Below, piece after piece: positions 3,848 through 35,710 of a stretch of DNA of 64,000 nt. How positions within the stretch are numbered: the stretch's first letter is position 1; every line of letters begins with the position of its first letter. The stretch comes from an uncultured delta proteobacterium (lineage in GTDB: Bacteria; Desulfobacterota; RBG-13-43-22). Position numbers and translations under genes: made by a program. The notes under the pieces were generated by a model, which did no database searches, had not been told where the DNA came from, and saw only the letters and a program-made list of their open reading frames with translations. The stretch covers positions 96,001 through 160,000 of the forward strand of contig CAWBOS010000015.1 of the NCBI GenBank assembly GCA_963790475.1, read 5' to 3'.

Positions 3848-4843
3848 ATGACTTTTTCCACAAATTCAAAGCCTACTGCCCTGGTTGATCCCTCTCGAAC
3901 ACGCTTCCTCCAGTATCTTGCTGCGAAAAAGTCGGTCGATGACCGCTCCCTTAACAAGCGGGTTTGGGATACCCTCCGTCAGACCCTCGCCCCTTCAGAA
4001 TTGCAGAAACCCATCACCATCTTCGAAGCGGGATGTGGCATCGGTACCATGATAGAAAGGCTGATCGATTGGGACCTGATAACCAATGGGCATTATACTG
4101 GCGTCGATGCAGCACCCGAATGCCTGACCGAGGCGCTCGTGAGGCTTCGTCGCCATGGAGAAAAATTAAGCCTGGAAGTCATCGACGAAAGAGCCGATAG
4201 GATTGCCATTCGGAACCGGCGTTTTTCTCTGGTGATCGAACTCGTGGCTATGGACCTGGTTGATTACCTCAAAATCAACAGGGACTCCCGCTCCTTTGAT
4301 CTCATCATCGCCCACGCCTTCCTTGACCTTGTCGATCTGGAAACGACCTTGCCCCTTCTCCTCTCTTCGGTCCGCCCTGGAGGGTTGTGTTACCTTACCC
4401 TCAACTTCGATGGAATGACCGTCTTTGAGCCGGTCGTGGATCGAGCCCTGGACAAAGAGATCGAACGGCTCTACCATGAGACCATGGACAAGAGATACCA
4501 GGGCGGCCCCGGCACCGGGGGGAGCCGCACCGGCCGAACCTTGCTGACGATCTTAAGATATCACGGGGTCCGAATCATCGATTCAGGTAGTTCGGACTGG
4601 CTATGTTTTGCCCGTGATGGTGGCTACGAGGGAATGGAATCCTTTTTTCTCCACTTTATTGTGGATACCGTTAAGGAGGCCCTGTCCGGAAACCCCGGTC
4701 TTGACCAGCAGCAGTTTTTACAATGGGTGGACAAAAGGCATAAGCAAATCGACAGGGGTGAACTCATTTATATTGCCCACCAACTCGATGTTTTGGGACA
4801 GGTTATCAGGCCTCCAGAGACAATTAGGAAACCGATCCTCTGA
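3848..4843 (+). CDS. Class I SAM-dependent methyltransferase
   Basis: Motif I FEAGCGIGTM, motif II YTGVD, FDLIIAHAFLDL. Confidence 0.8.
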   Translation: MTFSTNSKPTALVDPSRTRFLQYLAAKKSVDDRSLNKRVWDTLRQTLAPSELQKPITIFEAGCGIGTMIERLIDWDLITNGHYTGVDAAPECLTEALVRLRRHGEKLSLEVIDERADRIAIRNRRFSLVIELVAMDLVDYLKINRDSRSFDLIIAHAFLDLVDLETTLPLLLSSVRPGGLCYLTLNFDGMTVFEPVVDRALDKEIERLYHETMDKRYQGGPGTGGSRTGRTLLTILRYHGVRIIDSGSSDWLCFARDGGYEGMESFFLHFIVDTVKEALSGNPGLDQQQFLQWVDKRHKQIDRGELIYIAHQLDVLGQVIRPPETIRKPIL

Positions 4844-4985
4844 CCGCTAAGCGGTCGAGTTTCACATTCCAATCCCATAAAAACCGGGTCGCTTAACACC
4901 CTATGGCACTGTGACACCCACTTCGATCTTCTTCGCGATTTGGGCCCAGAGATCAACTTAGATTGTAGCAGGGGAATCAGCAAGG

Positions 4986-5768
4986 ATGGCATCTGAGGCA
5001 TTTTTTCACCAAAGGATTATTCGGGAATTCCTTCCTCTTTACCTTATGCCTCTCTTGTTGGTAACCGGGGCCTCCGAAATCCTGTCTCTTAATTGGACAA
5101 TGGATTACGGTTTTAGGTGGGCCATGGTCACAACGACCATTTTTCTCTTTGAAATTCTTCTAGTCCATCTCGTGCGCTTTCGCCTCAATAATGCCCATCA
5201 TGAACGGCAGCGACTTGCCCTCGGCACACCGGATTACATTACCTTGACCCGGGGATTCTTTCTGGCCTGTTCCGGAGGATTTATCGCCGTCCCCAGGCCG
5301 CAGGGATGGTTGGGCTGGGCCCCTGGTCTACTCTACCTGATGGCTATCAGCGGGGACAGTCTCGATGGATATTTGGCCCGCAAGTTGAAAAGATCAACCC
5401 TTTTTGGCGAGCTTCTCGATATTCAGTTTGATGCTCTGGGAACGTTGCTGGGCACAATCCTCGCTCTTCTTTATGGGCAAATCCCCGCCTGGTATCTTCT
5501 GGTGGGCTTCGGCTATTATATTTTAATTGTAGGAACCTGGGCTCGGAGGACCTGCGGACTGAAATCATACCCGCTAACGAAAAACACCTTCAGAAGAATT
5601 GCCGGCGGTACCAATTCGATTTTCCTCTCTCTGGCCGTAACACCTGCCTTACCCCCAAGGGTTACTGCCCTCATAGCCTATCCCTTCTTGGCCTTGATGG
5701 CCACCAGCTTCTTAAAGGACTGGTTCGCGGTCATTGGCCAAGGCAAAAACCATCGGAGGTCTGCATGA
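4986..5768 (+). CDS. CDP-alcohol phosphatidyltransferase family protein
   Basis: Signature DSLDGYLAR...GELLDIQFD in a multi-TM protein. Confidence 0.88.
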   Translation: MASEAFFHQRIIREFLPLYLMPLLLVTGASEILSLNWTMDYGFRWAMVTTTIFLFEILLVHLVRFRLNNAHHERQRLALGTPDYITLTRGFFLACSGGFIAVPRPQGWLGWAPGLLYLMAISGDSLDGYLARKLKRSTLFGELLDIQFDALGTLLGTILALLYGQIPAWYLLVGFGYYILIVGTWARRTCGLKSYPLTKNTFRRIAGGTNSIFLSLAVTPALPPRVTALIAYPFLALMATSFLKDWFAVIGQGKNHRRSA

Positions 5769-30225: not shown

Positions 30226-30691
30226 TTATTTCACGTTGGCTTGATTGTCATAGCCCTGCCTTTCCCAAAACCCCTGATAAGGTTTATCGGAAAGCTCGAT
30301 CCGGGTCACCCATTTGACCCACTTATAGCCCAGCTTGGATTCAGCCACGACCTGAAAAGGGAATCCCCGTTTGGCATCCAGAGTTCGCCCGTTTATTTCA
30401 GAGGCCAGCAGTAGATCAAGCCGTTCAATTTCTTTAAAGGACAGGGAAGAAGAGTAGCCGTCCGCCGCATAAAAAATGACCGTCGCAACCCCGGGCTTCA
30501 CCTTAGCCCGGTCCAATAAATCCTTTAATGGGATTGTCATAAGCCCTATCAAAAACATCCAGATGTTTCCCCTGATAATCTCTGACCTCTCTCGCCTGGG
30601 AACCTAGGGTAGCTGTAAATAAAACGGTGGGGAAAATCAATAAGGAAACAGCCATAAAAAGAGACCAGCCAAAATAAAATCGTGGTTTCAT
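30226..30691 (-). pseudogene. Sulfite-oxidase/MsrP-like molybdopterin oxidoreductase with internal deletion and frameshift
   Basis: Signal peptide and EVRDYQG..YDN in one frame. PLKDLL..ADGYSSSL..RGFPFQVVAESKLGYKWVKWVTRIEL..GFWE in another. The segment carrying the Mo-ligating Cys is missing. Confidence 0.8.
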
Positions 30692-31382: not shown

Positions 31383-32441
31383 TCAAACAATACCGGAAGG
31401 ATCGAGGAAGCACTGGGGGTCTTCGTCCAAAAAATTCTCTTCTCCTTTTAATTGGGAATAGGCATAAGCGATGGCCCGGCAGCCACGGCAATTGGCCCAT
31501 CGTTTACAAGAAACGCATTTCCCCTGGTATTGACTTCGATCCCTGAGGCTCTCCAGGACCGGAGAGGTCACCCATAATTCCCGCAGAGAATCTTTTCTTA
31601 TATTCCCGATAGGGACCGGGAGTCTTCGACAGGGAGTGATCGTCCCGTCAGGCAAAATTGTAAACCCCGACACCCCGGCCGCACACCCTCCCAAAGGCGC
31701 ATCTCCAAGGTCCTCAGTTTCGATGAGCGTATTCATTTGTGAGGTCAAAGGATCGCCGCTGAGAATGTTAAGACCGTCAGACTTACAGGAGAAGATTTGC
31801 CGATAGAGATCTCGGACCCTTTCCCTGGACAAGGAGTGGGATAATAATCCCGTCCCCTTTCCCGAAGGCACCAACCGGGAGAATCCCAGTCCTCTTACCC
31901 CGAGTGATTTTGATAACTCCATCATTTCTGAAATGCTTCCGGCATTGAGGTCCGACAGCGTCATGTTGAGCGTCACCGGTAATCCCACTGATATCAAATG
32001 GGCAATACCCTGGAGTGATCCGGAAAAACTCCCCTGCCCTCTGATCGAATCATGAATTTCTTCCGGCCCTTCCAAACTGATTTGAACCCCTTCCATACCC
32101 AAGTCGGCCAGTCTGGTCGCCCTTTCCCGACTGATTAATATTCCGTTGGACAGCAAATACCGCTCAAACCCTTTCCTACCCATAATCTCTAAAATCTCAA
32201 AGAGATCCGTCCTTAATAAGGGTTCTCCGCCGGTTACATTAAAACTTGGAGTAAAAGAGATTTCGTAAGCCTCCGACCAAGCCTGAAGCATCTTCCCCAC
32301 CTCTTCTATGCCTTGCCCGATTTCAGACAGGGACATCTCCCGGGAAAACGTCCCATCTTGATAGCAATGCCGGCAATTAAGATTACATCGCTCGGTCAGG
32401 TGCCATTGGACAAAAAAATCAAAAGAAGCGTTTTTAATCAT
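31383..32441 (-). CDS. Radical SAM/SPASM-domain protein, probable peptide maturase
   Basis: CNLNCRHC (CX3CX2C), TGGEP, SPASM CAAG..ILPDGTITPC..CVSC..NCRGC..DPQC. Confidence 0.93.
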   Translation of the reverse strand: MIKNASFDFFVQWHLTERCNLNCRHCYQDGTFSREMSLSEIGQGIEEVGKMLQAWSEAYEISFTPSFNVTGGEPLLRTDLFEILEIMGRKGFERYLLSNGILISRERATRLADLGMEGVQISLEGPEEIHDSIRGQGSFSGSLQGIAHLISVGLPVTLNMTLSDLNAGSISEMMELSKSLGVRGLGFSRLVPSGKGTGLLSHSLSRERVRDLYRQIFSCKSDGLNILSGDPLTSQMNTLIETEDLGDAPLGGCAAGVSGFTILPDGTITPCRRLPVPIGNIRKDSLRELWVTSPVLESLRDRSQYQGKCVSCKRWANCRGCRAIAYAYSQLKGEENFLDEDPQCFLDPSGIV

Positions 32442-32510
32442 GAAAAAAATGAATTTCTCTTTGGACCGTTTGGCTTTGATTCCTTCAGAATAGATTTTTA
32501 CGGGGAGGAA

Positions 32511-32554
32511 AAGGCGGATAAGCTTATTAGATCAAAAGCCTGCCCATCCGCCTT
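32511..32554 (-). terminator. 13-bp hairpin between peptide gene and radical SAM gene
   Basis: On the minus strand AAGGCGGATGGGC pairs with GCTTATCCGCCTT (two G-U pairs). Attenuator or mRNA-stabilising structure. Confidence 0.55.
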
Positions 32555-32561
32555 CTTTTTT

Positions 32562-32580
32562 CGCTGCTATCCAAGCAACG
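32562..32580 (-). promoter_or_regulatory. Candidate bacterial SECIS element
   Basis: Minus-strand stem CGUUGCU / AGCAGCG with loop UGGAU. Loop begins 26 nt after the first in-frame UGA. Confidence 0.55.
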
Positions 32581-32704
32581 TTCAGGATTTGCAACTCTCT
32601 CACTTGTGGCATACCTGACCAGGATTTGTATTCAAGACCTTCTTCACTTTACCCCAATAGGCAGCCTCCTTGGCCATGACCTTAGGGTTCAGCTTATTGG
32701 TCAT
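32567..32704 (-). CDS. Putative selenocysteine-containing RiPP precursor: MTNKLNPKVMAKEAAYWGKVKKVLNTNPGQVCHK(U)ESCKS(U)TLLG
   Basis: AGGAGG RBS, ATG 32704, in-frame TGA at codons 35 (32600-32602) and 41 (32582-32584) in register with Cys every third residue, TAG at 32567-32569. Immediately upstream of a SPASM gene. Confidence 0.7.
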
Positions 32705-32739
32705 CCCGATCCACCCCCTCCTATCAATAGACTGAATCT

Positions 32740-32767
32740 ATGATAGCACCTGGAGAAAGGATGTCAA
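32740..32767 (-). promoter_or_regulatory. Sigma70 promoter of the peptide-radical SAM unit
   Basis: TTGACA N16 TATCAT with an extended -10 TG on the minus strand. Confidence 0.7.
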
Positions 32768-32787
32768 AATCTTTTTTAGTCGCAATC

Positions 32788-34411
32788 TTATTTAATCCGG
32801 ATAATCTTACCTTCCTGGGTGTTAATGAAATTCACTTTGGACCAAAGAGAAAAGAATACCTCCGGTCTGAACCGTGAAAGCGGTTTAAACCCTTCCCGGG
32901 TGGCGGCGTAAAGACGGCCTTCCGCCAGCAGCTTTTCGAAAAGTTCAGCCCCGACTGCCGCTCTCTTGCCCTTGCTTCGGGCTATCTGTCAGGGCTTCTT
33001 CAAGGTCAATCGAATGGTCCTCGAAAGAGATACCCTTGAAAAAATTGATGATCCGCGTAGCAACAAAAAGGGTAAAGATATCTTCCCGCTTAACTCCATC
33101 GGTTTCCAGTCCCAGGGCGGTAAGCCGGGATTTAAAAATATCCTCTTCAGTCTGTTCCGGAAACTTTTGGGCAATGGGCGTGCGGGGAGTCAAATAAAAA
33201 GGCGAGGCCCCCAGGAGAACAGGAAGCCGGCTGTTCAGCCGCAGGGTCCTGATCATCGACGTCAGGGATTCTCCCGGTAATCCTAAAATCTGGTAGGAAA
33301 CGATCTTAAATCCCAAATGGGATGCCTCGGCTACCACTCGAAGATATTTTCCCATTCTTTGGGACCGGAGCGTTTCCTTCCGGACCACCGGATTGGAAGT
33401 CACCAGGGAAAGATTCAGATGGGTGAAACCGGCCTCCCTCATCATTCGCAATAATTCCTCATCCAGACTTTGATAGGAGATGCCGTTCATGGCCAGCAAT
33501 TGAATTTCCCCGGGAGGAAAGCCTTGCCTGATTTTTCGGCAAAGGTTTTTCATCTCCTCCTGGTCATAGGTAAGGTTGTCGTCTTCAAAATCAAAGACCC
33601 GGTAGCCTTCCCGATACCGACGTTCCATTTCTTCGAATACGTCTTGGGCGGATCTTCTTTGATAGCCGGGGAAGGTGCTGTGAACCGAACAAAATGAGCA
33701 ATGATGGGGACAACCTCGGGAGGTGAGAATAAAACACAAGGGCCGGTTTTCATATCGATAGGTCCGCCCATCCAAATCCGAAAAATCCGGCAGGGGGAGT
33801 TCTTCTATGGGGAAAGGATCGGCCTGAGGATTGAAAATCAGACGGCCTGCCTGCTTATATCCGAGGCCGGGAATCTGCTCCAATCCTTTGCCGCCTTGCC
33901 AGGCCCGGATCAATTCCACCAGGGGCCGCTCCCCCTCCCCCCGGATCACCCAATCCACTGCCGGGTCCTTAAGCATTATTTCAGGCGCAGCCGAAATATG
34001 GGATCCCCCGAGGACGATAGGGCAATGAGTTTTTTCTTTGATGGCCTTGGCCGCCTGCAGTACCTCCCGATAAAAAGGCGAGAAAAGCGAGGAGATCCCC
34101 ACCAGGTCAGGTTTTTCAAGGGCCGTTTCCCGGGCAATGGTTTCAAACGAAGCTCCGAAGTGATAGTAGTGATGGAAAAGGGAGAAAGGGCTTTGGTCCG
34201 GCCAGGGGTAGTATTCTTTCAGATAGGTCAACCCTTCAGGCAAAACAATGGTCCGTCTTCCCCGGCCCTGATGAAAATCCTTGAGGACTACCTCGACCTC
34301 AGGTAAGTGCTTTTTGACCGCCGCTTTCAAATAGGCCAGGCCTAAAGGCTGAAGCCTTACCTTGGTATCATAAAAATCCTGAATGGGAGGCTGGACAAGA
34401 ACTAGTTTCAT
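32788..34411 (-). CDS. B12-binding (class B) radical SAM protein, single-base frameshift near 32990
   Basis: LVQPP..PLGLAYL, PDLVGIS, IVLGGSH, RGEGE, TSRGCPHHCSFC. A shifted frame continues QIARSKGKRAAVGAELFEKLL...IIRIK to TAA at 32788. Confidence 0.88.
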
Positions 34412-34513: not shown

Positions 34514-35710
34514 ATGAACTACATCATTATCGGAAACGGGGTTGCCGGAACAACCGCAGCGGAAAACATCAGAAAGAACGACCCGCAGGGAGAGATCAAA
34601 ATCTTTACCGATGAGGCCTATCCCTTTTACAGCCGCATACGACTTATGGAATATCTGGCTGGAGAGGTGGAGCTTCCCAAACTGCAGATCCGCTCCAATT
34701 CCTGGTATGACAATCAAAAAATTGAGCTTTTTCTGAACAGCAAAGTGGTCGATATTGATGTCGCCAGTAAGGCCATCCAAACCCAGTCGGGGAAACGGCA
34801 CAGTTATGATAAACTTTTGTTGGCCGACGGCAGTCACTCCTTTGTACCGCCTATCAAAGGGGCGGAGAAAGAAGGGGTTTTCACCTTGCGCAACATCAAA
34901 GACGCTCAAGAGATCAAACGCTTTGCTGAGGGAAAAACTAAAGCCCTTTTGATCGGCGGTGGAATCCTGGGCCTGGAAGTGGGAAACAGTCTCCGGAAAA
35001 CCGGAATGAAGGTTTCTGTGGTTGAGTTTTTCCCCCGCCTGCTCCCCCGTCAAACCGATCCGCTATGTGCCACCCTGCTGCAAACCCGTCTGGAGCAGAT
35101 GGGTCTTCATTTTTATCTGGGGGTGTCTTCCAAAGAAATCCTCGGAGAAAATCGAGTCCAAGGACTACTACTGGAGGACGGCCGCCAAATAGAGACCGAT
35201 CTGATAATCATCTCCGCCGGGGTCAGGCCCAACCTGGAACTGGCCCAAAAATTAAACCTGAAAATTGGAAAGGGAATTTCGGTTTCGGATTACCTGGAAA
35301 CCGGGATCCCGGATATTTATGCCGCAGGAGACAGTATTGAACATAAGGGGATGCTTTACGGCATCTGGCCGGCCTCGGAAAAACAAGGGGAAGTGGCCGG
35401 TTCAAATATGGCCGGAAAACCGACCGTCTATGCCGGCACAACCCCCTCCAATCTGCTCAAAGTGGCCGGGATCGATTTGCTGGCCGCCGGTGATTTCGAT
35501 CCCGACGGCAAACTGGAAGCCTTTATCGATCAGAACCAGGAAACCGGGACTTACCGGAAGATGGTCATCAAAGAAAATCTTATTGTCGGTTGTTTGCTTT
35601 TCGGGACCCTGGAGGGAAGAAAAAATATATTAAAAGCCATGGAAGAAAAGCGGAACATTGCCGCCATCAAAGACCGCCTTTCAAGGTTTGATTTGGAAGC
35701 CTTGAATTAA
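34514..35710 (+). CDS. NAD(P)/FAD-dependent oxidoreductase (NADH:rubredoxin oxidoreductase / NirB N-terminal-like)
   Basis: IIGNGVAG, YDKLLLA.GS, IGGGILGLE, GVRPN, IYAAGD. Confidence 0.88.
   Translation: MNYIIIGNGVAGTTAAENIRKNDPQGEIKIFTDEAYPFYSRIRLMEYLAGEVELPKLQIRSNSWYDNQKIELFLNSKVVDIDVASKAIQTQSGKRHSYDKLLLADGSHSFVPPIKGAEKEGVFTLRNIKDAQEIKRFAEGKTKALLIGGGILGLEVGNSLRKTGMKVSVVEFFPRLLPRQTDPLCATLLQTRLEQMGLHFYLGVSSKEILGENRVQGLLLEDGRQIETDLIIISAGVRPNLELAQKLNLKIGKGISVSDYLETGIPDIYAAGDSIEHKGMLYGIWPASEKQGEVAGSNMAGKPTVYAGTTPSNLLKVAGIDLLAAGDFDPDGKLEAFIDQNQETGTYRKMVIKENLIVGCLLFGTLEGRKNILKAMEEKRNIAAIKDRLSRFDLEALN

What the first reader, a model, noticed from the sequence alone, without database searches (positions are those of the whole stretch)
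31383..32767. Candidate selenocysteine RiPP system: CxxUxxCxxU precursor peptide plus radical SAM/SPASM maturase
Seen: a promoter (TTGACA-N16-TATCAT) and an AGGAGG RBS precede a 45-codon ORF absent from the ORF track, MTNKLNPKVMAKEAAYWGKVKKVLNTNPGQV-C-H-K-TGA-E-S-C-K-S-TGA-T-L-L-G-TAG. The two TGA codons fall exactly in register with the two Cys, giving a C/U every third residue. The ORF ends about 125 bp before a same-strand radical SAM/SPASM gene. Known: SPASM enzymes commonly modify short Cys-rich peptides encoded next to them (sacti-/ranthipeptides), and a 'selenobiotic' Sec-peptide/radical SAM family has been predicted in Deltaproteobacteria. From memory, this Lys-rich leader does not resemble that family. 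Inference: a distinct family with up to two Sec residues, possibly forming selenoether and thioether crosslinks or a metal-binding core. Gene callers would cut it to 34 aa or miss it.
Basis: partly seen in the sequence, partly recalled or inferred. Interest (0 to 1): 0.92.

Follow-up and report, generated by a model that had tools for sequence, protein, structure and literature searches.

The report
Selenocysteine peptide with radical SAM maturase
A tiny, unannotated gene encodes a 40-residue peptide containing selenocysteine, sits directly in front of an iron-sulfur radical enzyme predicted to bind it, and belongs to a widespread family that I could not find in the selenoprotein or peptide-family lists I was able to check.

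Summary
An 11/12 sigma-70 promoter and an AGGAGG site precede a short ORF with in-frame TGAs at codons 35 and 41. A radical SAM/SPASM gene starts 125 nt after the TAG.

Comparison with 45 homologous peptide genes corrects the anatomy. The family core is C-x-K-U-K-x-U-K-x-stop:
- Codons 35 and 38 are each TGA in 45 of 46 genes and TGC once.
- Codon 41 is the family's stop, so the window's second TGA most likely terminates translation.
- 'TLLG' is not coding. It overlaps a conserved, covarying hairpin 9-12 nt after codon 38, like the hairpin after the UGA of this genome's fdhA-like gene.

The window peptide is therefore most likely 40 aa, ending C-H-K-U-E-S-C-K-S. The genome has selA, selB, selD and tRNA-Sec, plus two orphan paralogues (C-C-U and C-U-U).

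The peptide lies directly upstream of the enzyme in 37 of 40 orthologous loci across several lineages. A complex prediction supports binding (0.88 against a best control of 0.02).

No NCBIfam model fits either the peptide or the enzyme. A 2026 inventory of 119 selenoprotein families lists nothing like it.

Best reading: a second, distinct family of natural selenocysteine peptides matured by a radical SAM enzyme. The chemistry is unknown.

The parts
32740..32767 (-). Sigma-70-type promoter, TTGACA (32767..32762), 16-nt spacer, TATCAT (32745..32740), with TG before the -10 hexamer
   Evidence: 11 of 12 matches, and the only site found in 32300..33000. The same hexamers stand before both orphan paralogues.
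32717..32722 (-). Ribosome-binding site AGGAGG, 12 nt before the ATG
   Evidence: Read directly. It is conserved in both paralogues.
32585..32704 (-). Precursor peptide coding sequence, 40 codons. Leader residues 1-31 carry the conserved K-E-A-A-[FY]-W motif. The core is C32-H-K-U35-E-S-C38-K-S.
   Evidence: The frame, length and core are conserved in 46 genes.
32600..32602 (-). TGA codon 35, read as selenocysteine
   Evidence: TGA in 45 of 46 homologues and TGC in 1, the own-genome paralogue C10a. Coding conservation continues downstream of it.
32591..32593 (-). TGC codon 38, Cys in the window copy. This position is selenocysteine in the rest of the family.
   Evidence: TGA in 45 of 46 homologues. 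The window is the single TGC.
32582..32584 (-). TGA codon 41, most likely the true stop codon
   Evidence: Codon 41 is TAA in 15, TAG in 3 and TGA in 11 of 46 genes. Another 16 stop one codon later and 1 stops two codons later. Close relatives L019 and L104 have TAA here. The hairpin starts 1 nt after it, which is too close for SECIS-directed decoding (inference).
32562..32580 (-). SECIS-like hairpin: 7-bp stem (CGUUGCU / AGCAGCG, with one G-U pair) and loop UGGAU. It starts 10 nt after codon 38 and 19 nt after codon 35.
   Evidence: A hairpin is present in 46 of 46 genes, with compensatory changes at 4 of 6 stem pairs and a spacer of 9-12 nt in 44 of 46. The own-genome fdhA-like and selD genes have comparable hairpins 12 and 11 nt after their UGA.
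32509..32556 (-). Second, 15-bp hairpin followed by UUUUCC. It looks like a terminator or attenuator between the peptide gene and the enzyme gene.
   Evidence: fold (whole 118-nt stretch -34.6 kcal/mol, z -2.15). Orthologues have a hairpin plus a clear T-run at this place, for example L028, L031, L035, L043 and L047. The simple terminator scan did not call it in the window.
31383..32441 (-). Radical SAM/SPASM enzyme, 352 aa, the presumed maturase. It has the CxxxCxxC motif (C19, C23, C26) and seven invariant Cys in the SPASM half (C253, C271, C309, C312, C318, C321, C344).

Best explanation
The locus is a two-gene cassette.

The first gene, with a strong promoter, makes a 40-residue peptide. 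It has a roughly 31-residue helical leader (K-E-A-A-F/Y-W motif) and a nine-residue lysine-rich C-terminal core. In the family the core is C-x-K-U-K-x-U-K-x; in the window copy it is C-H-K-U-E-S-C-K-S.

Selenocysteine is inserted at UGA 35, and at UGA 38 in most family members. Insertion is directed by a single SECIS hairpin that lies just past the stop codon, in the 3' untranslated region. The window's second TGA (codon 41) is the stop.

The second gene encodes a radical SAM enzyme with a SPASM domain carrying two auxiliary iron-sulfur clusters. I infer that it docks the leader on its own surface, without a separate recognition domain, and places the Cys/Sec core next to an auxiliary cluster.

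The proposed chemistry, by analogy with sacti- and ranthipeptide maturases, is as follows. The selenolate or thiolate binds an auxiliary-cluster iron. The 5'-deoxyadenosyl radical abstracts a hydrogen from a nearby residue. A carbon-selenium or carbon-sulfur bridge then forms. No protease or exporter accompanies the cassette, so the product probably acts inside the cell as a redox-active or metal-binding selenopeptide or cofactor.

Status of each step:
- Shown by comparison: coding through the UGAs, Sec/Cys interchange, the SECIS hairpin, the Sec machinery, and the peptide-enzyme linkage.
- Supported by a model only: binding.
- Inferred: the cross-link chemistry and the cellular role.
For: Decoding of the UGAs:
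- In 46 peptide genes, codons 35 and 38 are each TGA 45 times and TGC once. The 46 are the window, 2 own-genome paralogues, 37 species-genome loci and 6 metagenome loci.
- The codons after the TGAs behave as coding sequence. K39 is AAG 36 times and AAA 10 times. Position 40 is Ser through both AGY and TCY codons, 31 of 46 in all. There are no frame-breaking indels. The terminator stands at codon 41, 42 or 43 in 29, 16 and 1 genes.

SECIS:
- A hairpin follows in 46 of 46 genes, 9-12 nt after codon 38 in 44 of them.
- Double compensatory changes occur at 4 of 6 stem pairs.
- Loops are G-rich: GGUC or GGUC plus one base in 30 of 46.
- In the same genome, the fdhA-like selenoprotein gene has a 12-nt spacer and a GGUCU-loop hairpin. 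selD has an 11-nt spacer and a hairpin.

Sec machinery:
- selB, selA, selD (itself with one in-frame TGA) and tRNA-Sec are all present.
- selB is over its cut-off in 5 of 5 other cassette-bearing genomes tested, out of 40.

Linkage of peptide and enzyme:
- The peptide gene lies directly upstream, on the same strand, in 37 of 40 orthologous enzyme loci at 45-76% identity. The record titles name Nitrospirota, Desulfobulbaceae, Geobacter, 'delta proteobacterium' and Dehalococcoidia.
- No other neighbour is conserved.

Binding:
- Complex prediction gave a score of 0.88 against a best of 3 controls of 0.02. That mark was reached by 58 of 80 solved complexes and 2 of 110 mismatched pairs. The runs agree in at least 63% of contacts, and the partner pLDDT is at least 70.
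- Conserved leader residues E13 and A14 (invariant) and W17 (at least 90%) touch enzyme residues W55, R287 and W290 (invariant) and Y59 (at least 90%).
- Core residues 30-36 touch 250-254 (including C253), C271 and C321, which are SPASM cysteines.

Enzyme type:
- The nearest solved structures are peptide- or protein-modifying SPASM enzymes: SkfB 1.2e-27, PqqE, anSME and CteB.
- PapB and Tte1186 accept Sec in place of Cys, show Se-Fe contact at an auxiliary cluster, and form Se-C links (abstract of PMC10177961).
Against: - No chemistry was observed. No mass, expression or selenium data exist for this locus, and no RNA run holds the stretch.
- The UGA at codon 35 sits 17-21 nt from the hairpin in 38 of the 40 genes measured (25 nt in 2; 19 nt in the window). 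That is about 9 nt beyond the 11-12 nt spacing seen at this genome's own selD and fdhA-like genes. How one hairpin serves both UGAs is unexplained. The window copy keeps only this far-positioned Sec.
- The window copy departs from the family consensus in the core (K36E and U38C), so it could be a drifting copy.
- The enzyme has no RRE/PqqD domain, and no protease or transporter lies nearby. That is atypical for exported RiPPs.
- Its best NCBIfam scores are to tetrapyrrole-modifying AhbD and NirJ2, though far below their cut-offs.
- The complex was modelled with the paralogue's 37-residue table-11 product, which lacks the Sec positions. It also used my own alignments and had ligands riding along, which the tool says is unlike its calibration. 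The tool states that a pass supports binding but does not show it.
Confidence: 0.7

Rival explanations
1. The peptide is not a substrate but a small selenoprotein subunit of the enzyme. It docks permanently and offers Sec/Cys ligands or a redox relay to an auxiliary iron-sulfur cluster. The enzyme itself would work on another substrate, for example a tetrapyrrole as its AhbD/NirJ-like relatives do.
For: The best NCBIfam scores of the enzyme are AhbD (175.7 bits) and NirJ2 (168.7 bits). Some sources label relatives 'AdoMet-dependent heme synthase'. The complex model shows only binding, with the core next to cluster cysteines. There is no protease or exporter nearby.
Against: - The AhbD and NirJ2 scores are far below their 500-bit cut-offs.
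- The peptide has its own strong promoter, and a terminator-like hairpin stands before the enzyme gene. That layout suggests the peptide is made in excess, which fits a substrate better than a subunit.
- The genome has three peptide genes for one enzyme gene.
- The nearest solved structures act on peptides or proteins.
Confidence: 0.13
2. The short ORF is mainly a selenium-sensing leader peptide. Ribosome progress through the two UGA codons would depend on the Sec-tRNA supply and would decide whether the downstream hairpin terminates transcription before the enzyme gene.
For: The layout fits: a short ORF with rare recoded codons, then a strong hairpin with a T-run in many orthologues, then the enzyme gene 26-423 nt downstream.
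Against: - The leader sequence is conserved at the amino-acid level across phyla: E13, A14 and C32 are invariant, and W17 and K34 are at least 90% conserved. An attenuator peptide does not need that.
- Two orphan copies keep the promoter, ORF and hairpins with no intact enzyme gene behind them.
- The conserved leader residues form the predicted interface with the enzyme.
- This reading could coexist with the main one.
Confidence: 0.05
3. The peptide is a free-standing small selenoprotein, for example a metal or redox buffer. It would need no modification and would merely be a genomic neighbour of the enzyme.
For: Orphan copies exist away from any enzyme gene. C/U-x-x-U motifs occur in redox and metal-binding selenoproteins listed in Table 1 of PMC13188914. 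Pyridine nucleotide-disulfide oxidoreductase genes lie near two of the three copies in this genome.
Against: - The peptide is adjacent to the enzyme gene in 37 of 40 loci across distant lineages, while every other neighbour changes.
- One orphan still carries a remnant of the enzyme gene's 5' end, so the orphans derive from the cassette.
- The complex prediction passes far above its controls.
Confidence: 0.08
4. The TGAs are plain stops. A 34-residue peptide or no peptide is made, and the downstream conservation is RNA-level only.
For: Gene callers produce 34-residue products. Codons 36 and 39 are highly uniform at the nucleotide level: AAG in 42 and 36 of 46.
Against: - TGC replaces TGA once at each position.
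- Ser at codon 40 switches between AGY and TCY codon families.
- The real terminator keeps a fixed in-frame distance, whereas the distance from the stop to the hairpin varies out of frame.
- A SECIS-type hairpin and the complete Sec machinery are present.
Confidence: 0.03

Closest known systems
Thio(seleno)oxazole ('selenobiotic' / 'selenobacteriocin') system: precursor family TIGR04081 with radical SAM maturase SbtM (TIGR04082)
   Same: Both have a short precursor with UGA-encoded selenocysteine followed by a SECIS element, next to a radical SAM/SPASM-type enzyme. Both occur in anaerobic Sec-decoding bacteria. (Passages in PMC11002830 section 14; Table 1 of PMC13188914.)
   Different: - The peptide has no match to TIGR04081 at E up to 10 in 7 of 7 family members tested.
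- The Sec motif listed for that family is SGUG. Here it is K-U-K.
- The enzyme scores 140.7 bits against a cut-off of 350, and it aligns only to model positions 199-516, so it lacks SbtM's N-terminal 200 residues.
- The product chemistry here is unknown.
- The primary paper (Lewis et al. 2021) is not held. I know it only through these two reviews.
Sactipeptide and ranthipeptide maturases (SkfB, CteB with SCIFF peptides, PapB, Tte1186)
   Same: These are radical SAM plus SPASM enzymes acting on short Cys-rich peptides encoded immediately upstream. SCIFF is likewise a two-gene cassette of about 45 residues without a transporter (recalled). SkfB is the best PDB match at 1.2e-27, and CteB also matches. 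PapB and Tte1186 can form Se-C links when given Sec peptides (abstract of PMC10177961).
   Different: - Natural substrates of those enzymes contain Cys, not Sec.
- Those enzymes mostly carry an N-terminal leader-recognition domain (recalled). None is detected here.
- No NCBIfam model of these families is reached: StsB 83 bits against 625, SkfB 69.4 against 300, PapB 61.7 against 340.
'UXX-star' and related C-terminal selenoproteins (NF041114, NF041211; Haft and Tolstoy 2025, as listed in PMC13188914 Table 1)
   Same: Selenocysteine stands three codons before the stop, so the SECIS must lie in the 3' untranslated region. Here the C-terminus is U-K-x-stop in 29 of 46 genes.
   Different: No HMM match for 7 of 7 peptides. 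Those are listed as Grx-like proteins, not 40-residue peptides, and are not listed with a radical SAM partner. The source paper is not held.
AhbD / NirJ tetrapyrrole-modifying radical SAM/SPASM enzymes
   Same: These give the highest-scoring NCBIfam models for the enzyme. 'AdoMet-dependent heme synthase' is the name some sources give to its relatives.
   Different: The scores are 175.7 and 168.7 bits against cut-offs of 500. Those enzymes have no peptide partner (established knowledge, recalled).

Membership tests
Bacterial selenoprotein gene (UGA decoded as Sec) | In-frame UGA conserved among homologues, with coding conservation downstream | tested here: met
   TGA in 45 of 46 genes at both codon 35 and codon 38. 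K39 is present in 46 of 46 with synonymous AAG/AAA variation. Ser40 uses both AGY and TCY codons. The terminator distance is fixed and in frame.
Bacterial selenoprotein gene (UGA decoded as Sec) | Cys/Sec pairs: UGA aligned with Cys codons in homologues | tested here: met
   Codon 35 is TGC in own-genome paralogue C10a. Codon 38 is TGC in the window. That is only one case at each position.
Bacterial selenoprotein gene (UGA decoded as Sec) | SECIS hairpin at the proper distance downstream of the UGA | tested here: met
   A hairpin follows in 46 of 46 genes, 9-12 nt after UGA 38 in 44 of them, with 4 of 6 stem pairs showing compensatory changes. It matches the spacing and loop type at the own fdhA-like and selD genes. 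For UGA 35 the spacing is 17-21 nt in 38 of the 40 genes measured and 25 nt in 2. Whether that works is not shown.
Bacterial selenoprotein gene (UGA decoded as Sec) | selA, selB, selC and selD in the genome | tested here: met
   selB 390.6 bits, selA 629.5 bits and selD 394.1 bits are all over their cut-offs. tRNA-Sec is on contig C6.
Selenobiotic / thio(seleno)oxazole system (TIGR04081 + TIGR04082 SbtM) | Precursor matches the TIGR04081 model | tested here: not met
   No hit at E up to 1 or up to 10 for 7 of 7 diverse family peptides.
Selenobiotic / thio(seleno)oxazole system (TIGR04081 + TIGR04082 SbtM) | Enzyme reaches the TIGR04082 cut-off over its full length | tested here: not met
   140.7 bits against a cut-off of 350. 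Only model positions 199-516 of 516 are aligned.
Selenobiotic / thio(seleno)oxazole system (TIGR04081 + TIGR04082 SbtM) | Loss of four hydrogens and oxazole-type ring formation at Cys/Sec | not testable with these tools
   This needs mass spectrometry and NMR of the enzyme-treated peptide.
Radical SAM/SPASM peptide maturase with adjacent precursor (RiPP-type cassette) | CxxxCxxC radical SAM motif and a SPASM domain with seven conserved Cys | tested here: met
   Pfam Radical_SAM 76.2 bits and SPASM 39.8 bits. C19, C23, C26, C253, C271, C309, C312, C318, C321 and C344 are invariant in 37 sequences.
Radical SAM/SPASM peptide maturase with adjacent precursor (RiPP-type cassette) | Short Cys-rich precursor gene conserved next to the enzyme gene | tested here: met
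   37 of 40 loci have it directly upstream on the same strand. The misses are L026, L033 and L037.
Radical SAM/SPASM peptide maturase with adjacent precursor (RiPP-type cassette) | Leader-recognition (RRE/PqqD-like) domain in the enzyme or in a neighbour | tested here: not met
   No such Pfam domain was found in the enzyme or in the nine neighbouring proteins scanned. This feature is common in such cassettes but not obligatory.
Radical SAM/SPASM peptide maturase with adjacent precursor (RiPP-type cassette) | Physical binding of the precursor to the enzyme | tested here: inconclusive
   A model only: score 0.88 against a best control of 0.02. The tool says this supports binding but does not show it.
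Radical SAM/SPASM peptide maturase with adjacent precursor (RiPP-type cassette) | Enzyme-dependent covalent modification of the peptide | not testable with these tools
   This needs biochemistry.
SCIFF / ranthipeptide (TIGR03973 peptide) | Peptide matches the SCIFF model | tested here: not met
   No NCBIfam hit for 7 of 7 peptides. The SCIFF maturase model is not among the 25 best of the 87 families listed for the enzyme.
AhbD heme b synthase (TIGR04545) | Score over the curated cut-off | tested here: not met
   175.7 bits against a cut-off of 500.

The most novel reading that the evidence does not exclude
This would be a widespread and so far unannotated class of natural selenopeptides. A roughly 40-residue precursor carries two selenocysteines three residues apart. 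Both are decoded from a single SECIS hairpin placed after the stop codon. A leader-domain-less radical SAM/SPASM enzyme then matures the peptide into an intracellular selenium-bridged peptide or cofactor. It would be the second natural Sec-RiPP family, and a case of one bacterial SECIS serving two UGA codons 9 nt apart.
Probability: 0.5. Interest if true: 0.88.

Novelty: new variant of a known kind. Interest (0 to 1): 0.82.

Why it matters
Only one family of natural selenocysteine-bearing, radical-SAM-matured peptides appears in the inventory I could read: 'Selenobacteriocin', TIGR04081, among the 119 families of PMC13188914 Table 1.

This locus defines a second, unrelated family:
- It is found in at least 44 loci from MAGs whose record titles name Nitrospirota, Desulfobulbaceae, Geobacter, 'delta proteobacterium' and Dehalococcoidia.
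- The enzyme family is large. 1955 protein clusters score E <= 1e-60, although only the best 8000 candidates were scored and not all need belong.
- The peptide is almost invisible in protein databases. Two clusters hold it, both truncated to 34 aa.

It offers three things:
- A natural substrate for studying Se-C bond formation, or other selenium chemistry, by SPASM enzymes.
- A test case for how a 3'-UTR SECIS can decode two closely spaced UGAs.
- A reminder that RiPP and selenoprotein mining miss short ORFs that read through stop codons.

Selenium is retained at both positions in 45 of 46 genes. That argues the selenium itself is needed for function.

Tried and rejected
- Rfam: an evalue-mode search of 32400..32800 gave only three chance-level hits (E 2.6-9.3), none a SECIS family.
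- Terminator scan: it called nothing in 32300..33000. The hairpin has an 18-nt loop and a weak T-run, so I describe it only as terminator-like, from the fold and from orthologues.
- RNA evidence: no RNA holder is listed for window 32380-32800, and 20 DNA-type rows were returned.
I used a degenerate DNA pattern instead. My automatic leader filter flagged 0 of 80 because its regular expression was wrong. The six were picked by eye from the printed translations, and four of them were confirmed by the enzyme's N-terminal motif downstream.
- Alignment A1 contained one wrongly placed reference (the own paralogue C10a) and ragged loops. I did not use it for any count. Hairpin counts come from scripts.
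- The idea that the downstream genes define the pathway: rejected as unsupported. The downstream neighbour varies: a SIS-domain protein in the window, YceI-like in 10 of 41 loci, PEMT/ICMT-like in 4 of 41.
- Literature: 'selenobiotic' gave 0 papers. Six other searches found no description of this family. One search was wasted on an ambiguous acronym. Lewis et al. 2021 (PMC8935624) and Haft and Tolstoy 2025 (PMC12013261) are not held. I know their content only through PMC11002830 (passages) and PMC13188914 (section 7, parts 1 and 2, plus further passages found by term search). Supplements were not consulted. If either unseen paper or its supplements lists this family, the novelty rating falls.
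- Papers as seen: PMC10177961, abstract, outline and reference passages. bioRxiv 10.1101/2022.07.06.499078, one passage. All others, search listings only.


Full report
WHAT IS THERE

The finding lies on the minus strand.

- A sigma-70-type promoter, TTGACA-16-TATCAT, matches 11 of 12 positions and has a TG extension. It stands at 32767..32740 and is the only such site in 32300..33000.
- AGGAGG precedes the ATG by 12 nt.
- The ORF 32441..31383 encodes a 352-residue protein with Pfam Radical_SAM and SPASM domains.
- Table-11 ORF calling sees only a 34-residue ORF at 32704..32600.

THE GENOME CAN DECODE SEC

The window's genome (6.34 Mb, 20 contigs) carries the full machinery:
- selB at 390.6 bits
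- selA at 629.5 bits
- selD at 394.1 bits, itself with one in-frame TGA
- a tRNA-Sec gene

THE PEPTIDE IS A FAMILY

A tblastn of the peptide against the own genome found two further copies on contig C10. One has the core C-H-K-C-K-S-U-K-S. The other has C-H-K-U-K-S-U-K-S.

A scan of one genome per prokaryotic species with the enzyme returned 51 loci, 40 of them close relatives at 45-76% identity (L018-L057). In 37 of these 40 a homologous short ORF lies directly upstream on the same strand. The three exceptions (L026, L033, L037) have a membrane-protein gene there instead. A degenerate-pattern scan of metagenome contigs added six more members among 80 listed loci, the rest being chance hits.

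Across the resulting 46 genes:
- Codon 32 is always Cys.
- Codon 35 is TGA 45 times and TGC once.
- Codon 38 is TGA 45 times and TGC once, the single TGC being the window.
- Lys follows at codon 36 in 44 genes and at codon 39 in all 46, with AAG/AAA variation.
- Codon 40 is Ser through both AGY and TCY codons in 31 genes.
- There are no frame-breaking indels.

This is the classic signature of Sec decoding with purifying selection on the residues beyond the UGAs.

WHERE THE PEPTIDE ENDS

The terminator stands at codon 41 in 29 genes (TAA 15, TGA 11, TAG 3). It stands at codon 42 in 16 (TAA 15, TAG 1) and at codon 43 in one.

The window's second TGA is at codon 41. Its close relatives L019 and L104 share the same leader type and the same downstream hairpin, and both have TAA there. 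Where codon 41 is TGA in other lineages, read-through gives unconserved tails of very different lengths.

I conclude that codon 41 is the stop. The window's product is then 40 residues ending C-H-K-U-E-S-C-K-S. It carries one Sec, whereas the family norm is two.

'TLLG' IS A SECIS HAIRPIN

Immediately after the stop every gene has a hairpin. In a fixed six-pair register, all 46 form at least 5 of 6 pairs.

- Pairs 1, 2, 3 and 6 show double compensatory changes: G-C/A-T, U-A/C-G, U-A/C-G, and C-G/U-A/A-U.
- Loops are GGUC (18), GGUC plus one base (12), GGUUC (4), UGGAU (5, the window's clade), GGGAC (1) and CGUGN (6, Dehalococcoidia).
- The stem starts 9-12 nt after UGA 38 in 44 of 46 genes.

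In the same genome, the fdhA-like selenoprotein gene has a 12-nt spacer and then a hairpin with a GGUCU loop. selD has an 11-nt spacer and a hairpin with a G-rich loop.

A spacing of about 11 nt and a GGUC-type loop are, from memory, the features of the well-studied enterobacterial and Moorella SECIS elements. That comparison is recalled, not tested here.

In the window the hairpin is 32580..32562 and overlaps ACG-TTG-CTT-GGA-TAG. This explains the apparent conservation of 'TLLG' even after a TAA.

UGA 35 lies 9 nt further upstream, 17-21 nt from the stem in 38 of the 40 genes measured and 25 nt in 2. How one hairpin serves both UGAs is unexplained. It matters for the window, whose only Sec is at that far position.

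THE SECOND HAIRPIN

A 15-bp hairpin at 32556..32509 is followed by UUUUCC. In many orthologues the equivalent hairpin has a clear T-run. This suggests partial termination between the peptide gene and the enzyme gene.

THE ENZYME

The enzyme has the CxxxCxxC motif and seven invariant cysteines in the SPASM half.

No NCBIfam model is reached:
- AhbD 175.7 bits against a cut-off of 500
- NirJ2 168.7 against 500
- SbtM 140.7 against 350, aligned to the C-terminal 318 model positions only

Public names for its relatives are generic, or 'AdoMet-dependent heme synthase'. A profile of 37 family members finds SkfB (1.2e-27), PqqE, anSME and CteB as the nearest solved structures. No RRE/PqqD domain is detected.

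LINKAGE AND BINDING

Apart from the peptide, no neighbour is conserved. Downstream on the same strand are a SIS-domain gene in the window, a signal-peptide-less YceI-like gene in 10 of 41 loci, and a PEMT/ICMT-like membrane methyltransferase in 4 of 41. No protease or transporter was seen.

The own genome has one enzyme gene but three peptide genes. One orphan is still followed by a remnant of the enzyme's first 22 or so codons. The orphans are therefore partial duplications of the cassette.

A complex prediction used the enzyme alignment, the leader alignment headed by the paralogue's 37-residue table-11 product, three 4Fe-4S clusters and SAM. Results:
- Score 0.88 against a best of 3 controls of 0.02.
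- That mark was reached by 58 of 80 solved complexes and 2 of 110 mismatched pairs.
- The runs agree in at least 63% of contacts, and the partner pLDDT is at least 70.

The tool warns that its calibration did not include riding ligands or my own alignments, and that a pass supports binding but does not show it.

The interface pairs conserved leader residues E13 and A14 (invariant) and W17 (at least 90%) with enzyme residues W55, R287 and W290 (invariant) and Y59 (at least 90%). It puts core residues 30-36 against 250-254, C271 and C321.

HOW IT MOST LIKELY WORKS

I read the cassette as a RiPP-like system. The peptide is made in excess from its own promoter, with Sec inserted through the 3'-UTR SECIS. 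The enzyme binds the leader directly and modifies the Cys/Sec core at an auxiliary cluster.

The specific chemistry is inference by analogy. PapB and Tte1186 accept Sec peptides, show Se-Fe contact at an auxiliary cluster, and form Se-C bonds (abstract of PMC10177961). SbtM instead makes thio(seleno)oxazoles (PMC11002830, section 14).

The lack of export and cleavage genes suggests an intracellular product. The near-absolute retention of Sec, 45 of 46 at each site, suggests that selenium is functionally required.

Rivals are given with odds in their own section: a Sec-bearing small subunit of the enzyme, a selenium-sensing leader peptide, a free-standing selenoprotein, and plain stops.

COMPARISON WITH WHAT IS KNOWN, AND NOVELTY

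Seven of seven diverse family peptides, read with U passed as C, hit no NCBIfam model at E up to 10, apart from two chance-level matches.

The May 2026 inventory of 119 prokaryotic selenoprotein families (PMC13188914, Table 1, read) lists a single peptide-type entry: 'Selenobacteriocin', TIGR04081, motif SGUG. It lists nothing resembling a C-x-K-U-K-x-U-K peptide.

The 5.8-billion-protein collection holds only two clusters of the peptide. Both are truncated to 34 residues, and the only name given is 'hypothetical protein'. My literature searches found no description. Two relevant papers could not be read.

selB is present over its cut-off in 5 of 5 other cassette-bearing genomes tested, out of 40.

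I rate the locus a new variant of a known kind. It is the same general idea as the selenobiotic system, a Sec precursor plus a radical SAM enzyme. But it has an unrelated peptide, a different enzyme clade and architecture, a double-Sec core, and a post-stop SECIS.

VERDICT

- Observation: confirmed.
- Interpretation: right in substance, corrected in detail. There is one Sec, not two, in this copy. The second TGA is the stop. 'TLLG' is the SECIS.
- Confidence that this is a Sec-decoded peptide: about 0.9.
- Confidence that it is the substrate of the adjacent enzyme: about 0.7.
- Confidence that the product contains Se-C or S-C cross-links: about 0.3.

Noticed in passing
Own genome contig C10: L070 3851..3985 (+) and L069 4090..3956 (-): There are two orphan paralogues of the peptide gene, each with the same promoter hexamers, RBS, SECIS-like hairpin and second hairpin. 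The L070 copy is followed at about 4157..4222 by a remnant of the enzyme gene's 5' end (M-L-T-H-H-S-F-D-F-F-I-Q-W-H-L-T-...). That remnant runs into a Pyr_redox_2/Pyr_redox_dim oxidoreductase gene (4227..5642). The orphans therefore arose by partial duplication of the cassette.
   Followed up: partly
L025, L028, L030, L031, L035, L036, L038, L039, L043, L045 (directly downstream of the enzyme gene); L069 3195..3767 (+): A YceI-like gene (Pfam PF04264), without an evident signal peptide in 8 of the 10 printed N-termini, follows the enzyme gene on the same strand in 10 of 41 loci. Another lies convergent to the orphan peptide in L069. In 4 other loci (L020, L023, L024, L034) the downstream gene is a PEMT/ICMT-like membrane methyltransferase. 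Both families are associated with isoprenoid-type ligands (recalled). A functional link is possible but was not tested.
   Followed up: partly
Own genome contig C13 443305..444664, versus contig C20 490..1848: selA is found twice. One copy is intact, on a 3.2-kb contig (629.5 bits). The other is broken into four pieces with a TAA, on C13. It could be a pseudogene, an assembly error, or a sign of the 9.68% contamination reported for the assembly.
   Followed up: no
window 32945..34411 (-) and 34514..35710 (+): Immediately upstream of the cassette lie a B12-binding radical SAM protein (488 aa) and, divergently, a rubredoxin-reductase-like Pyr_redox_2 protein (398 aa). The latter recurs near the cassette in L018 and L019, and on the downstream side in L038.
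   Followed up: no
window 30226..30558 (-): A 110-residue ORF matches only the C-terminal part (positions 74-169 of 169) of the Oxidored_molyb domain. It may be a truncated or mis-started gene.
   Followed up: no
L026, L033, L037 (upstream of the enzyme gene): In the three orthologous loci that lack the adjacent peptide, the enzyme gene is instead preceded by a small multi-pass membrane protein gene. Whether those genomes carry the peptide elsewhere was not checked.
   Followed up: no
L049-L055 (MAGs labelled Dehalococcoidia): A shorter peptide variant of about 35 aa occurs here. The leader lacks the Trp, the core is S-C-L-[AS]-U-K-S-U-K-[NG]-K, and the hairpin has a CGUGN or GUC-type loop. 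The peptide gene ends only 39-58 nt before the enzyme gene, with no second hairpin.
   Followed up: partly
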